From a virus (taxonomy: Duplodnaviria > Heunggongvirae > Uroviricota > Caudoviricetes): 11,462 nucleotides of DNA. A program made the position numbers and the translations under genes. Positions 6,248 to 10,515 of the stretch are shown here, one piece after another. Numbering within the stretch: position 1 is the first letter of the stretch; each line of letters starts with the position of its first letter. Below the pieces are notes generated by a model, which was given only the letters and a program-made list of their open reading frames with translations, was not told the origin of the DNA and ran no database searches. The stretch is taken from IMG/VR virus record IMGVR_UViG_2703719355_000014, positions 1 to 11,462 of that record. One strand, given 5' to 3'.

Positions 6248-6427
6248 TCCCCGCTTTATCCAAATTGCATTGCCAGAATGCCGACAACAGACTGACATTC
6301 AAATCCTGACTACCTCCAATAGTCTGACCGTACACCTATATAGTTTTAAATTTCATCAATCCATTTAACTATCGTTTAATTGTTGTCACATAGGATTCTG
6401 CCGTTTTTAACAATGCAGGATAATAAG

Positions 6428-6721
6428 ATGAAAAAAATGTTGTTTTCTGCCGCTCTGGCAATGCTTATTACAGGATGTGCTCAACAGACGTTTACTGTTG
6501 GAAACAAACCGACAGCAGTAACACCAAAGGAAACCATCACCCATCATTTCTTCGTTTCGGGAATTGGACAGGAGAAAACTGTTGATGCAGCCAAAATTTG
6601 TGGCGGCGCAGAAAATGTTGTTAAAACAGAAACCCAGCAAACATTCGTAAATGGATTGCTCGGTTTTATTACTTTAGGCATTTATACTCCGCTGGAAGCG
6701 CGTGTGTATTGCTCACAATAA
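6428..6721 (+). CDS. bor: Bor lipoprotein (lambda Bor-like, serum-resistance lipoprotein family)
   Basis: Translation from the ATG at 6428 (MKKMLFSAALAMLITGCAQQTFTV...) has a signal peptide and LITGC lipobox, is 97 aa, and matches lambda Bor closely from memory. AGGA Shine-Dalgarno 7 nt upstream. Opposite strand to the lysis genes, as in lambda. Confidence 0.9.
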   Translation: MKKMLFSAALAMLITGCAQQTFTVGNKPTAVTPKETITHHFFVSGIGQEKTVDAAKICGGAENVVKTETQQTFVNGLLGFITLGIYTPLEARVYCSQ

Positions 6722-7690: not shown

Positions 7691-8017
7691 TTACTCCTTA
7701 GAGCCACCAAATTTGTTACCGATTACTCGCATTGCAGCCCCACGAATAGCATTGACACCGATCAGCCCCACCCCACCACCAATGGCAACAGATAGTGATT
7801 TAGGCCATCCGACATACTCAAGAGCGGATGCAAAAGTCAGCGTCAGAGCACCACAGAGTAGAATTTCGAGTGTTTTTCGCTTCCAGCCGCCACCACCGCC
7901 AAAATAGGCAATACGTAAACCAGCCATAACAATCGACATAATCACTGCGCCCAGCGGTGTGTCTCCACGCCACCAGCTCTGGACCAACTCCAGCCAGGTA
8001 TTTGGGTTATGAGGCAT
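7691..8017 (-). CDS. S: Holin, lambda S family (class I)
   Basis: 108 aa with hydrophobic helices and a basic C-terminal tail. Pattern resembles lambda S (…MAGLRIAYFGGGG… against lambda …MAYLRGRYNGG…). Immediately upstream of R. Confidence 0.8.
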   Translation of the reverse strand: MPHNPNTWLELVQSWWRGDTPLGAVIMSIVMAGLRIAYFGGGGGWKRKTLEILLCGALTLTFASALEYVGWPKSLSVAIGGGVGLIGVNAIRGAAMRVIGNKFGGSKE

Positions 8018-8159
8018 TTGTAGTTATCTCTCACCTCGCCAATACAGGAGGTGCAAATTGAGGGAACATCATGTACCGCAAATCAGAAGCGGAAACGTAA
8101 AAGAGGCCGAGCCAATGGATAACTGCGGTATAGACCAGGCTCAACAAATAGCCGGGTCC

Positions 8160-8188
8160 AGAAACGACAAACCCGCTCGACGGCGGGT
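8160..8188 (-). terminator. Candidate intrinsic terminator (tR'-like) on the minus strand
   Basis: Stem ACCCGC/GCGGGT (8171-8176 / 8183-8188) with a 6-nt loop. On the minus strand it is followed by TTGTCGTTTCT. It lies about 210 nt downstream of the candidate late promoter, comparable to the lambda pR'-tR' spacing. Confidence 0.3.
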
Positions 8189-8401
8189 TTAAGCTGTGTG
8201 GCGAAGTGACCACTCTTAACACGATACAATAGTTTTTGCGTACGCGTTAGCATTTTTGATGGAAGTTAATGGTTGTTAATCTTATACTCAGTAAACAAAA
8301 TTTATGCCGCCTTGAGCATGATGCGACATTAGGCACATGTTTGGATCTTCCTCGAAGATTCGTGCGGTAGCTATGCTCAAAATCCAATCAGCTCATAAAA
8401 C

Positions 8402-8430
8402 ATACTATGGGTTTTAAATGCTCATTCCAA
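8402..8430 (-). promoter_or_regulatory. Candidate sigma70 late promoter (pR'-like) on the minus strand
   Basis: Minus-strand TTGGAA (-35; plus 8425-8430), 17-nt spacer, TAGTAT (-10; plus 8402-8407). Overlaps the start codon of the first cassette gene on the other strand. Found by eye only and lies in AT-rich DNA where such matches arise by chance. Confidence 0.2.
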
Positions 8431-9167
8431 CATCTCTATCAAAACAACCAGTAATCGAAGCTGCTTTCGAAATGCGTTTTTCTAAAGAAACACAAATATC
8501 GGAAATAGTTCCAGGGTTTCTTTTTCACGCTCTAGGTTGTACAAAACCAGTAATTAGTTTACCACCCAGTCAAATACCTAAAAATGTTCGTGAGGGAGAT
8601 GAACAATTACATTACGCAGTTGTCAGTCGCCTCGAAATCGAAGGGTACTATATTGGACTAAGTGACCATGGTGTTGTTGTATCCACCAGCACCAAATATC
8701 AAGGGTGGAGTCATTTTAGAGAAAAAATCATTCATGTATTAAATGAGCTTAACAAATTAAATTTAAATGACAACATCATCCGCTACTCATTAAAGTATGT
8801 AGATTTTTTCCCAAAAGAAGACGATTCTAATTTATTTGATAAGCTAAACGTCAGCTTAAATATGGCTGGCGAGTCTATGTCTAATTATCCGATCAATATC
8901 AGAATCGATAAAAATGAAGGCGCATTTCTAAATATAATTCAAATATTATCTCATGCTTTAGTCATGTCAGATAATGGAGAATTTAATAAAAAAGGACTAA
9001 TCCTAGACATAGACAGTATTAGGCAAATCACTAATACTGATGAAATAGATAAGTTTAAAAACGAACCCAAAAAAATTCTTGATGATCTTCACTCCTGTAA
9101 TAAATTAGCTTTCTTTAGTTGCCTTAAAGAGTCAACAATTCAAGAACTAGAACCATCCTACAAATAG
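8418..9167 (+). CDS. Hypothetical protein (249 aa), first gene of AT-rich cassette
   Basis: Long ORF on the strand opposite to the phage late operon, with Asn/Lys/Ile-rich composition typical of low-GC DNA. TAG stop. No catalytic motif recognised; weak GGG-type RBS only. Confidence 0.7.
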   Translation: MLIPTSLSKQPVIEAAFEMRFSKETQISEIVPGFLFHALGCTKPVISLPPSQIPKNVREGDEQLHYAVVSRLEIEGYYIGLSDHGVVVSTSTKYQGWSHFREKIIHVLNELNKLNLNDNIIRYSLKYVDFFPKEDDSNLFDKLNVSLNMAGESMSNYPINIRIDKNEGAFLNIIQILSHALVMSDNGEFNKKGLILDIDSIRQITNTDEIDKFKNEPKKILDDLHSCNKLAFFSCLKESTIQELEPSYK

Positions 9168-9182
9168 AAATGGTGGTATGAT

Positions 9183-9527
9183 ATGTATCCGTCTCATCAT
9201 GTTTATCGAGCTCAACTTCAAGTATTAACTTTGGTTTTATATGGTCTGCATATAACAGCATTAACAGACATTGCCCAAAATCAACAGCATGGTCCTCAAC
9301 AAAGTTTAATCGTCAAAAATCACGCTTTGGAGTATAAGTCTTCAACTACCGATTCAGTTCATTCCATCACACAAACATATAAAGCAGGGAGCACAATCTC
9401 AGTTGATCAAAGACTTGCAGTCTCGATGACAAACTTTTATGAAAAATTATCAACAAACCAGGTGTCTTTAGGCAGTGAAATAAATAAAGTCGTTCATGCT
9501 TCACTGTGGGATTTATACTTGGATTAA
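9183..9527 (+). CDS. Hypothetical protein (114 aa), second cassette gene
   Basis: ATG at 9183 is preceded by a GGTGG Shine-Dalgarno 6 nt upstream and lies 15 nt after the upstream stop. N-terminal hydrophobic stretch (LQVLTLVLYGLHITAL) may be a membrane anchor. Stop TAA at 9525-9527. Confidence 0.6.
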   Translation: MYPSHHVYRAQLQVLTLVLYGLHITALTDIAQNQQHGPQQSLIVKNHALEYKSSTTDSVHSITQTYKAGSTISVDQRLAVSMTNFYEKLSTNQVSLGSEINKVVHASLWDLYLD

Positions 9528-9530
9528 GTG

Positions 9531-10145
9531 ATGAGTAATAACATTTTTGATATCGAGAAATTCAAAGATCAAATTCCATATTATTTAACAGCTCCTCAAA
9601 AAGAAGGGCTAATAAATGCACTTAGAGATTTCCCTGAAAACACTAACTACTACCTTACCAATTATCATGATGATCTGAAAAATGCTGCACTTCAGGGAGA
9701 TATATTTAAGGAGCTTACAGTATATTCAATTAAAGGGACTAAAAAAACACGAGGAATTATATTAAGCAACAGTTGCGATATAGATACAAGTAATAATCGT
9801 GATGTGCCAATGCGTGCAGTCTTTGCTCCGTTAGTAAGTTTATCTAAGTTCGAAGCTATTCTTCTCTCCAACGGAGTTTCTAAGACTTCAATAGATAGCA
9901 AAATTGATGCTATAAGGAAGCAGTTAATTACTAATATTTTTTATCTTCCTGAATCAGACAACTTAGAAGAATGCATCGTTTTTCTTGATGATGTATACCA
10001 ATTACCAACGGAAGAATTACAAAAACTCTTGAATGATAAATGCAAAGCCATAACTTTAAGTCAAGTTGGTTTCTACATTTTACTATTCAAAATATCTATT
10101 CACTTTTGTAGATTCCATGAAAACATACAACGATTCGATCATTAA
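9531..10145 (+). CDS. Hypothetical protein (204 aa), third cassette gene
   Basis: Start ATG 9531 (or GTG 9528) immediately follows the upstream TAA, giving TAAGTGATG and suggesting translational coupling. No recognisable domain. TAA stop directly followed by an intrinsic terminator. Confidence 0.7.
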   Translation: MSNNIFDIEKFKDQIPYYLTAPQKEGLINALRDFPENTNYYLTNYHDDLKNAALQGDIFKELTVYSIKGTKKTRGIILSNSCDIDTSNNRDVPMRAVFAPLVSLSKFEAILLSNGVSKTSIDSKIDAIRKQLITNIFYLPESDNLEECIVFLDDVYQLPTEELQKLLNDKCKAITLSQVGFYILLFKISIHFCRFHENIQRFDH

Positions 10146-10172
10146 GGCGGTACTACCGCCTTTTATTATTTT
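10144..10172 (+). terminator. Rho-independent terminator of the cassette operon
   Basis: AAGGCGG-tacta-CCGCCTT stem-loop directly followed by TTTTATTATTTT on the plus strand. The T-tract overlaps the stop codon of the convergent Q gene. Confidence 0.6.
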
Positions 10173-10515
10173 ACACAAGTATACTTACAACCCCCTCTAT
10201 AAAACCGATTGCGGTTTGCAACTCCTTCCTAATAGTGCCATCAGAGCACCTTCTCTTTTTGGCAATAGTGCGTAATGAGATACCAATAACAAAGTGGGCT
10301 ATGATGAGCTCATATTCCTCTGGTTTATACCTTCTCAACCGAGCCACACAACTGTCTATCATAATGCCTTCGTCATCATCACACTGAATCCGTGACTTTT
10401 TGCCATGAGGTAAAAGCCCCTTGAAGCCTGCTGCTACCGGCTGCCAGTCCACACCACTGTTGTCTGCTGCAGCCCATGCTCCCCAGCGGTCCAATACTTC
10501 ATACATATCACGCAT
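10171..10515 (-). CDS. Late-gene antitermination protein Q (QuuD-like, Phage_antitermQ family)
   Basis: Translation from the ATG at 10515 (MRDMYEVLDRWGAWAAADNSGVDWQPVAAGFKGL...CSDGTIRKELQTAIGFIEG...) resembles the DLP12 QuuD-type Q proteins as I recall them. GGAG Shine-Dalgarno 7 nt upstream; the ORF-track TTG start at 10530 is less likely. Confidence 0.75.
   Translation of the reverse strand: MRDMYEVLDRWGAWAAADNSGVDWQPVAAGFKGLLPHGKKSRIQCDDDEGIMIDSCVARLRRYKPEEYELIIAHFVIGISLRTIAKKRRCSDGTIRKELQTAIGFIEGVVSILV

What the first reader, a model, noticed from the sequence alone, without database searches (positions are those of the whole stretch)
9183..10145. Cassette genes B and C are translationally coupled (TAAGTGATG junction)
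The stop of B (TAA, 9525-9527) directly abuts the GTG/ATG start of C (9528/9531). B has a hydrophobic N-terminal segment and could be membrane-anchored; C is hydrophilic with a hydrophobic C-terminal patch. Tight coupling implies a fixed stoichiometry, as in toxin-immunity or sensor-effector pairs.
Basis: seen in the sequence. Interest (0 to 1): 0.6.

Follow-up and report, generated by a model that had tools for sequence, protein, structure and literature searches.

The report
MazF-fold toxin-like gene pair in prophage
Genes B and C are real, tightly joined partners in an uncharacterised three-gene cassette; the prophage carries it in a known anti-phage defence slot, and C has the fold of the bacterial toxin MazF, so the cassette is a credible but untested toxin-antitoxin-like defence candidate.

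Summary
The junction is as described: B ends with TAA at 9525-9527, then GTG, then ATG at 9531. The real start of C is the ATG. Four enterobacterial relatives keep stop-NNN-ATG, but their spacers (taa, tca, tat, taa) are not start codons.

Such tight spacing is ordinary for an operon. What matters is what the genes are.
- **Synteny:** A (TIGR04255 family), B and C occur together, in this order, in 80 of 80 species genomes and in about 40 of 41 viral contigs.
- **B:** it is a real, fast-evolving gene. It has a hydrophobic N-terminal stretch and a conserved acidic C-terminal 40 residues.
- **C translation:** C's own ribosome-binding site is weak, which fits translation coupled to B.
- **Location:** the AT-rich cassette lies next to the antiterminator gene Q. 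In sibling prophages this slot holds the validated defence system DS-1, a metallophosphoesterase-NACHT protein, or a TIR-caspase pair.

Best reading: a tripartite toxin-antitoxin-like defence module in which C is the effector, B its neutraliser or adaptor, and A a sensor. Toxicity, B-C binding and defence are untested.

The parts
8418..9167 (+). Gene A, 249 aa, TIGR04255 family. First gene of the cassette and the putative sensor or regulator.
9172..9176 (+). GGTGG Shine-Dalgarno of B.
   Evidence: Duplex with the 16S 3' end is -6.2 kcal/mol, within the best 7% of positions in the cassette. In this copy it replaces the 8-nt A/B overlap seen in 68/82 family loci.
9183..9527 (+). Gene B, 114 aa. 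Hydrophobic stretch at about residues 12-30; conserved C-terminal 40 residues that are acidic across the family. Putative antitoxin or adaptor.
   Evidence: Found between A and C in all 80 genome loci after one HMM iteration. C-terminal consensus F..FY..L...QEPLG.EFE.VL..NLW.LYES; the median net charge of the last 40 residues is -6 across the family and -2 in this copy. PHROG 5728. 14 relatives of 93-124 aa among 1.8 billion representative proteins, none fused.
9525..9533 (+). B/C junction TAA-GTG-ATG: B stop, 3-nt spacer, C start.
   Evidence: The spacer varies among relatives (taa, tca, tat, taa). C's own SD is weak at -3.1 kcal/mol.
9531..10145 (+). Gene C, 204 aa. N-terminal helical region, MazF/Kid-fold core with a helical insert, and a C-terminal helix carrying HFCRFHE. 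Putative toxin or effector.
10144..10172 (+). Intrinsic-terminator-like hairpin and T-run ending the cassette, back to back with the 3' end of Q.
   Evidence: stem AAGGCGGTACTACCGCCTT followed by TTATTATTTT.
10171..10515 (-). Antiterminator Q gene, convergent with the cassette. It marks one side of the cargo slot.
   Evidence: Pfam Phage_antitermQ, E 1e-44. Annotation.
8153..8279 (-). Late-promoter-like site (8279-8252) and two terminator-like hairpins (8191-8153) upstream of the holin gene. The cassette therefore appears to lie between Q and the late promoter, outside the late transcript.
   Evidence: Consensus scan only; function is inferred from lambdoid gene order. The holin at 7691-8017 is confirmed by Pfam.

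Best explanation
B and C are the second and third genes of a self-contained, horizontally mobile three-gene operon (A-B-C). An E. coli lambdoid prophage carries it as AT-rich antisense cargo in a defence hotspot next to the Q antiterminator gene.

**Shown**
- The three genes always travel together, in this order.
- C's core has the fold of MazF/Kid-type toxins.
- B is a small, rapidly evolving protein with a conserved C-terminal tail that is acidic across the family.
- C lacks a good ribosome-binding site and starts 3 nt after B's stop.
- Sibling prophages hold a validated defence system, or defence-type proteins, in the same slot.

**Inferred mechanism**
- Ribosomes finishing B reinitiate at the C start codon. 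C is therefore made only together with B, at a set ratio.
- B's acidic C-terminal tail binds and neutralises the MazF-fold protein C, as MazE does for MazF.
- A is a TIGR04255 protein with a conserved charged face on its beta-sheet. It senses a ligand or a phage product and controls the stability of B or its hold on C.
- Infection releases C, which stops growth (abortive infection), most likely through RNA cleavage or another nucleic-acid target.
- The hydrophobic N-terminal stretch of B may be a membrane anchor or the segment that A holds.
For: - **Junction and start codon:**
- **Weak SD for C, good SD for B:**
- **Synteny:** A-B-C in 80/80 species genomes from several phyla. In 41 viral contigs, 38 are complete by HMM, 2 more have a B-sized gap and 1 is cut. 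Also present in Pseudomonas temperate phages Dobby and VW-6S.
- **Spacing:** the B-C gap is 2-17 nt in nearly all loci where it could be measured. A and B overlap by 8 nt in 68/82 loci.
- **C's fold:** MazF/Kid/CcdB.
- **B:** conserved C-terminal tail, acidic across the family, with low conservation elsewhere, as is usual for antitoxins.
- **No conserved fourth gene:** neighbours are variable, and integrases and resolvases are the most frequent. A few are known defence genes.
- **Foreign origin:** GC is 31-36% against about 52% in the flanks.
- **Hotspot:** in prophages with the same backbone, the same slot holds DS-1, which is listed among the validated systems of the DefensePredictor paper (PMC13092281). 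Other siblings hold a metallophosphoesterase-NACHT protein or a TIR plus caspase-family pair.
- **Precedent:** a MazF-like domain with a helical insert acts as a defence effector in type II Gabija (PMC13069673).
Against: - No sequence-level link between C and MazF/PemK or CcdB: hmmscan finds nothing at E<=1, a profile search of PDB sequences finds nothing, and hhalign gives probability 0.8%. The MazF catalytic residues cannot be mapped.
- The C family is mildly acidic (median pI 6.2), which is unusual for an RNA-binding toxin.
- B has no recognisable DNA-binding domain. Its N-terminus looks like a signal or anchor sequence in some lineages. If B's tail were exported it could not neutralise a cytoplasmic C.
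- Nothing matches any PADLOC defence model.
- No interaction, toxicity or phage assay exists. No paper mentions TIGR04255.
- Only a handful of the 150 flanking genes of family members are known defence genes.
Confidence: 0.5

Rival explanations
1. The cassette is a toxin-antitoxin-type addiction module. It stabilises the prophage or mobile element that carries it (post-segregational killing) and does not defend against phages. B-C coupling serves the same purpose, which is never to make toxin without antitoxin.
For: MazF-fold C downstream of a small acidic B. Integrases and resolvases are the commonest neighbours. The cassette occurs on many different mobile elements.
Against: Its position in a slot that holds validated or defence-type cargo in sibling prophages. 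An obligate third gene, A, is not needed for simple addiction. The two roles are not exclusive: many toxin-antitoxin modules do both (own knowledge).
Confidence: 0.15
2. B is a membrane-anchored or exported protein and is not a cytoplasmic antitoxin. The module acts at the envelope, for example in superinfection exclusion, or B tethers or gates C at the membrane. Coupling then only ensures co-expression.
For: A hydrophobic or small-residue stretch at residues 8-30 in all 80 B homologues, with a median uncharged run of 24 residues. Some look like Sec signal peptides with Ala-rich ends. 0-2 Lys/Arg precede the stretch.
Against: Hydrophobicity is borderline: the median KD19 is 1.48, only 25/80 reach 1.6, and the median strictly hydrophobic run is 15 residues. 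Neither A nor C has a signal or membrane segment; their maximum KD19 values are 1.37 and 1.44, the latter being C's C-terminal helix. The conserved part of B is the acidic tail, not the hydrophobic segment.
Confidence: 0.15
3. B and C are merely packed together in one operon. B works with A, as its partner, substrate or chaperone client, and C is controlled by A directly or is not a toxin at all. The MazF fold would then serve as a binding domain.
For: The A-B junction is far more strictly conserved (an 8-nt overlap in 68/82 loci) than the B-C junction. C lacks detectable MazF sequence motifs and is acidic. Short gaps are normal in operons.
Against: Stop-NNN-ATG is kept through 46-73% protein divergence in the enterobacterial clade. 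C's weak SD makes it dependent on upstream translation. Conservation is very strong around the MazF-like strands and the Cys/His cluster, which suggests an active site.
Confidence: 0.15
4. B is a non-coding artefact, or B and C are made as one read-through protein because they share a reading frame here.
For: B and C are in the same frame in the window, separated only by TAA GTG. A single-sequence word search found only B itself.
Against: B homologues of 93-127 aa with a conserved tail are present in every locus. Frames differ in most other lineages. Two enterobacterial relatives have tandem stops at the junction, TGA TAA and TAG TAA. The one apparent fusion (L040) has an irregular A-B junction too and is probably a frameshifted MAG assembly.
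Confidence: 0.02

Closest known systems
Type II toxin-antitoxin MazE-MazF / PemI-PemK (Kis-Kid)
   Different: No sequence-profile similarity. C is twice the size, with an N-terminal helical region, a helical insert and an invariant Cys/His cluster. B has a hydrophobic N-terminus instead of an AbrB or RHH DNA-binding domain. A third gene, A, is obligate.
Tripartite toxin-antitoxin-chaperone systems (Mycobacterium HigBA-SecB-like TAC; the anti-phage CmdTAC). Comparison from my own knowledge of the literature.
   Same: Three co-transcribed genes. A labile antitoxin with a hydrophobic, aggregation-prone segment that a third protein could hold. In CmdTAC the third protein senses phage capsid and releases the toxin. 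That logic would fit A-B-C.
Type II Gabija GajC (a split MazF-like effector with a helical insertion), PMC13069673
   Same: A MazF-like domain interrupted by helices, used as the effector of a validated anti-phage system.
   Different: GajC works with a UvrD-type helicase, GajB. No helicase is conserved next to A-B-C.
DS-1 and DS-8 of DefensePredictor (PMC13092281)
   Same: They, or for DS-8 a protein of the same architecture, occupy the same Q-adjacent, antisense cargo slot in sibling E. coli prophages.
   Different: The proteins are unrelated: YejK-like NA37 plus a partner, and metallophosphoesterase-NACHT. A-B-C accessions and sequences were not found in that paper's stored supplementary tables, some of which were truncated when stored.

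Membership tests
MazF/PemK toxin family (Pfam PF02452) with CcdB (PF01845) | SH3-like barrel toxin fold | tested here: met
   [not shown]
MazF/PemK toxin family (Pfam PF02452) with CcdB (PF01845) | Significant match to the family sequence profile | tested here: not met
   No Pfam hit at E<=1. A profile search of PDB sequences finds no MazF. hhalign against a 4-sequence MazF alignment gives probability 0.8%.
MazF/PemK toxin family (Pfam PF02452) with CcdB (PF01845) | Catalytic residues (E. coli MazF R29 and T52, own knowledge) and endoribonuclease activity | tested here: inconclusive
   A mostly basic residue precedes G75, and the stretch [KR]-G-I-I-L-S-N-S-C-D resembles the R-P-x-L-V-I-Q-x-D stretch of MazF. 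Activity is not testable here.
Type II toxin-antitoxin module | Antitoxin gene immediately upstream of the toxin gene and tightly coupled to it | tested here: met
   3-nt gap here. Gaps of 2-17 nt in nearly all family loci where they could be measured. Stop-NNN-ATG in five enterobacterial lineages.
Type II toxin-antitoxin module | Antitoxin with a DNA-binding N-terminal domain and a toxin-binding C-terminal tail | tested here: inconclusive
   The conserved acidic tail is present. The N-terminus is hydrophobic, poorly conserved and matches no Pfam family. No structure prediction of B was run.
Type II toxin-antitoxin module | Toxin arrests growth and antitoxin neutralises it by direct binding | not testable with these tools
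   Needs expression assays or multimer prediction.
Toxin-antitoxin-chaperone (TAC) systems | Third gene encodes a SecB-like chaperone | tested here: not met
   [not shown]
Known anti-phage defence systems (PADLOC-DB v2.0.0) | Match to a curated defence protein model | tested here: not met
   No hit for A, B or C at E<=1.
Anti-phage defence system (generic) | Located in a defence hotspot or island of a mobile element | tested here: met
   The same Q-adjacent slot carries DS-1, a metallophosphoesterase-NACHT protein or a TIR plus caspase pair in sibling prophages. In phage Dobby the cassette lies beside the portal gene, and in VW-6S between cI and int.
Anti-phage defence system (generic) | Reduces phage plating or burst when expressed | not testable with these tools
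   Experiment required. No report was found.
TIGR04255 family (gene A) | Score above the NCBIfam cutoff over the full length | tested here: met
   96.2 bits against a cutoff of 30; residues 7-244 match model positions 2-251 of 252.
Type II Gabija (GajB-GajC) | MazF-like effector partnered with a UvrD-type helicase, GajB | tested here: not met
   No helicase is conserved among 150 flanking genes of 76 loci. None is in the window next to the cassette.

The most novel reading that the evidence does not exclude
A-B-C is a previously undescribed family of tripartite anti-phage systems. A TIGR04255 protein would use its conserved charged beta-sheet face to sense a small molecule or a phage product. 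Through a small adaptor with a hydrophobic head and an acidic tail (B), it would release a highly divergent MazF-fold effector (C) that carries a family-specific Cys/His, possibly metal-binding, site. This would give the first function for TIGR04255 and define a new clade of MazF-fold toxins. The family is spread by temperate phages and integrative elements across Proteobacteria and beyond.
Probability: 0.35. Interest if true: 0.7.

Novelty: new variant of a known kind. Interest (0 to 1): 0.55.

Why it matters
If the reading is right, a widespread family with no assigned function would gain one. C has 469 detected homologues, and the cassette is in at least 119 species genomes, 41 viral contigs and 92 of 5,426 complete E. 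coli genomes.

TIGR04255 would get its first biological context. The MazF fold would gain a sequence-invisible branch with a different partner arrangement.

The work also documents a cargo slot next to Q in one lineage of lambdoid prophages, including an Stx2 phage. That slot swaps validated and candidate defence systems, so it can be mined for more.

The narrow claim, B-C translational coupling, is ordinary operon biology. It matters only as the likely way the cell avoids making C without B.

Tried and rejected
- **GTG 9528 as the start of C:** rejected. The spacer is not a start codon in four relatives, and their N-termini align to the ATG start.
- **Read-through B-C fusion:** rejected, because of tandem stops in relatives and different frames elsewhere.
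- **Natural B-C fusion in L040:** examined and judged a frameshifted MAG assembly. Its A-B junction is also irregular.
- **Family searches:** Pfam, PADLOC and NCBIfam give nothing for B and C. PHROGs gives only 'unknown function' families.
- **Sequence-level homology of C to MazF:** hmmsearch against PDB sequences and hhalign are both negative.
- **Single-sequence searches with B:** these found only itself or 14 relatives. B homologues had to be recovered from synteny.
- **A as a SecB-like chaperone or DNA-binding regulator:** not supported. There is no SecB hit, and A's enterobacterial relatives are acidic, with a median net charge of -8.5.
- **Promoter for the cassette:** no consensus sigma-70 site was found on the + strand upstream of A, so the promoter is unidentified.
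- **An 'empty' Q-holin site:** none was found among 5,426 E. coli genomes.
- **Literature:** no paper mentions TIGR04255, CHP04255 or the three WP accessions. They were not found in the DefensePredictor supplements either, apart from TIGR04255 appearing as a neighbour-gene label in Table S3. Two other papers hold no searchable supplements.
- **The afdb50 fold library:** not available.
- **Inter-protein covariation (DCA):** considered and not run. About 120 triplets are too few to trust.

Full report
**1. Where the window comes from**

The window is the late region of an E. coli lambdoid prophage. On the minus strand lie capsid, protease, portal, terminase, HNH, Rz, lysozyme and holin genes. 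Further on are the antiterminator Q gene and a DUF968 gene.

Three plus-strand genes lie between the holin gene and Q:
- A, 8418-9167
- B, 9183-9527
- C, 9531-10145

This stretch has 31-36% GC, against about 52% around it. The region 8250-10200 occurs at 99% identity or more in 92 of 5,426 complete E. coli genomes. It is always annotated as a TIGR04255 family protein, two hypothetical proteins and Q.

**2. The observation**

The sequence at 9520-9539 is tggat TAA GTG ATG agtaat. The stop of B therefore abuts a GTG, and an ATG follows.

NCBI's annotation of a genome identical over this region starts C at the ATG. Comparison settles the choice of start codon. Leclercia, Citrobacter, Klebsiella and Yersinia relatives have C proteins 50-71% identical to this one. 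All four keep stop-NNN-ATG, but their spacers are taa, tca, tat and taa. The GTG is therefore only a spacer. Two of these relatives even have tandem in-frame stops, which argues against read-through.

Across the ~75 genome loci where both ends could be placed, the B-stop to C-start gap is 2-17 nt in nearly all, mostly 7-11, and the frames vary. A short gap is ordinary in operons, but here it is clearly maintained.

C's own Shine-Dalgarno is weak. Its duplex energy is -3.1 kcal/mol, and a quarter of all positions in the cassette do as well or better. B's GGTGG gives -6.2. Termination-reinitiation coupling of C to B is thus plausible, but it is an inference.

**3. B is a real gene and the unit is three genes**

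C has 469 detectable homologues and no Pfam domain. I first looked at loci from Allochromatium, Trinickia and a Desulfobacterota MAG. Then I examined 80 species genomes spanning Alpha-, Beta- and Gammaproteobacteria, Desulfobacterota, Bacteroidota and Muiribacteriota.
- An A homologue lies on the same strand upstream of C in all 80, directly upstream except in L082.
- A B-sized ORF lies between A and C. A four-sequence B profile finds it in 73 of the 80, and one iteration finds it in all of them.
- In 41 IMG/VR viral contigs, 38 have all three genes, two more have a B-sized gap, and one is cut off.
- Pseudomonas temperate phages Dobby (P2-like, beside the portal gene) and VW-6S (between cI and int) also carry the full trio.

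B evolves fast. It is 21-29% identical between phyla, and a scan of 1.8 billion representative proteins found only 14 relatives. Two features are kept:
- A hydrophobic or small-residue stretch at residues 8-30.
- A C-terminal 40 residues with the consensus F..FY..L...QEPLG.EFE.VL..NLW.LYES, acidic across the family (median net charge -6; -2 in this copy).

Across the family the A-B junction is more rigid than the B-C junction. In 68 of 82 loci the ATG of B lies inside the last codons of A (..TATGAATAA.., an 8-nt overlap). The E. coli copy has replaced this with a 15-nt gap and its own SD.

No fourth gene is conserved. The 150 flanking genes match 155 different Pfam families. Integrases (7) and resolvases (3) are the most frequent non-repeat families, and a few flanking genes are known defence genes.

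**4. What the proteins look like**

C was modelled from 119 sequences and gave a confident model (pLDDT 87, pTM 0.82).
- Foldseek independently ranks 32 MazF/MoxT/YdcE-type chains first, with probability 0.98-1.00.
- C adds an N-terminal helical region carrying the motif IPYYLT, a two-helix insert, and a C-terminal helix.
It carries the nearly invariant motif HFCRFHE.
- C82, H191 and C193 are invariant and H196 nearly so.

At sequence level nothing links C to MazF. Pfam, an HMM search of PDB sequences and profile-profile comparison (probability 0.8%) are all negative. C therefore shares the fold but is not a demonstrable family member.

A matches TIGR04255 (96 bits against a cutoff of 30) and models well (pLDDT 90).
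- Residues conserved at 80% or more across 78 family members include E18/R20, R122/S124/K126 and D197/D199. They sit in an i/i+2 pattern on neighbouring strands.
- That pattern looks like a polar ligand-binding or catalytic face. This is an inference.

**5. Genomic setting**

A promoter-like site and two terminator-like hairpins on the minus strand (8279-8153) precede the holin gene. A terminator-like hairpin (10144-10162) ends the cassette back to back with Q. The cassette therefore appears to sit between Q and the late promoter, antisense to the phage genes. That is how lysogen-expressed cargo is arranged.

Prophages with the same backbone (identical holin; related Q, DUF968, KilA-N and RusA genes) carry other antisense cargo in the same slot:
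- WP_000355468.1 plus WP_000150292.1. Table S6 of the DefensePredictor paper lists this pair as DS-1, one of its experimentally validated systems.
- A 1,050-aa metallophosphoesterase-NACHT protein, with the same architecture as that paper's DS-8.
- A TIR-domain protein plus a caspase-family protein.
- Two-gene pairs of unknown function, one of them in an Stx2 phage.

The Leclercia, Citrobacter and Yersinia copies of A-B-C also lie between Q and the lysis genes of different prophages. This is good 'guilt by location' evidence for a defence role. It is not proof.

**6. Most likely mechanism**

- **Shown:** the obligate trio, the MazF fold of C, the conserved tail of B, the tight junction with a weak SD for C, and the hotspot location.
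- **Inferred:**
  - C is a growth-arresting effector.
  - B's tail neutralises it, as MazE neutralises MazF.
  - Reinitiation after B ensures that C is never made without B.
  - A senses infection and controls B.
  - Release of C aborts the infection.

I put about 0.5 on this as a whole. Higher (about 0.9) is the claim that B and C are co-translated partners of a three-gene module. Lower is any specific biochemical activity. The rivals are addiction only, B as an envelope protein, and B working with A rather than C. None can be excluded without experiments.

**7. Comparison with known systems and novelty**

The module works like a type II toxin-antitoxin pair with an added third component. It is therefore closest in logic to MazEF and to tripartite toxin-antitoxin-chaperone systems such as CmdTAC (from my own knowledge of the literature). 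A MazF-like effector with a helical insert also has a precedent in type II Gabija.

It fails the membership tests for each:
- no MazF sequence signal;
- no DNA-binding antitoxin domain;
- no SecB-like chaperone;
- no helicase partner;
- no PADLOC match.

I found no paper on TIGR04255 or on these proteins. I rate it a new variant of a known kind.

The coupling itself is mundane. The interest lies in the uncharacterised, widespread cassette and in the Q-adjacent hotspot.

Noticed in passing
window 8018-10170; sibling loci L089 2087-4479, L090 817-3969, L091 2901-4464, L092 3000-4461, L093 3024-4401: The slot next to the 3' end of Q is an exchangeable cargo site in one lineage of E. coli lambdoid prophages. 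The cargo is always antisense to the phage genes. It holds A-B-C here. Siblings hold DS-1 (validated in PMC13092281), a metallophosphoesterase-NACHT protein, a TIR plus caspase-family pair, and two uncharacterised two-gene pairs, one of them in an Stx2 phage.
   Followed up: partly
window 9165-9185; family loci, e.g. L002 1170-1177: In 68 of 82 family loci, B's ATG lies inside A's last codons (..TATGAATAA.., an 8-nt overlap). The E. coli copy has lost this overlap and has a 15-nt gap with a GGTGG Shine-Dalgarno instead.
   Followed up: yes
[not shown]
   Followed up: partly
window 9531-10145 (protein C residues 82, 191, 193, 196): C82, H191 and C193 are invariant and H196 is nearly invariant. 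They could form a metal site joining the loop after strand 2 to the C-terminal helix.
   Followed up: no
window 6425-6721 (+): A Bor lipoprotein gene (Pfam Lambda_Bor, E 7e-31) sits antisense in a second low-GC patch (about 40% GC) between the HNH and lysis genes. In the otherwise related ACN002 prophage the matching position is annotated as a GrlR-family gene, so this is another variable cargo site.
   Followed up: partly
L082 3108-5977: In one Arenicellales MAG, A lies about 1.8 kb upstream of B-C instead of abutting B. This may be an insertion into the cassette.
   Followed up: no
L040 5656-6612: B and C appear in one ORF in a long-read MAG. The A-B junction is irregular too, so this is more likely assembly frameshifts than a natural fusion.
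   Followed up: partly
plasmid hit H25 (CP085522.1 31207-31604): A 41-kb non-mobilizable E. coli plasmid holds only fragmented pieces of a C relative (56% identity, 66% covered, three places). It may be a decayed copy on a phage-plasmid.
   Followed up: no
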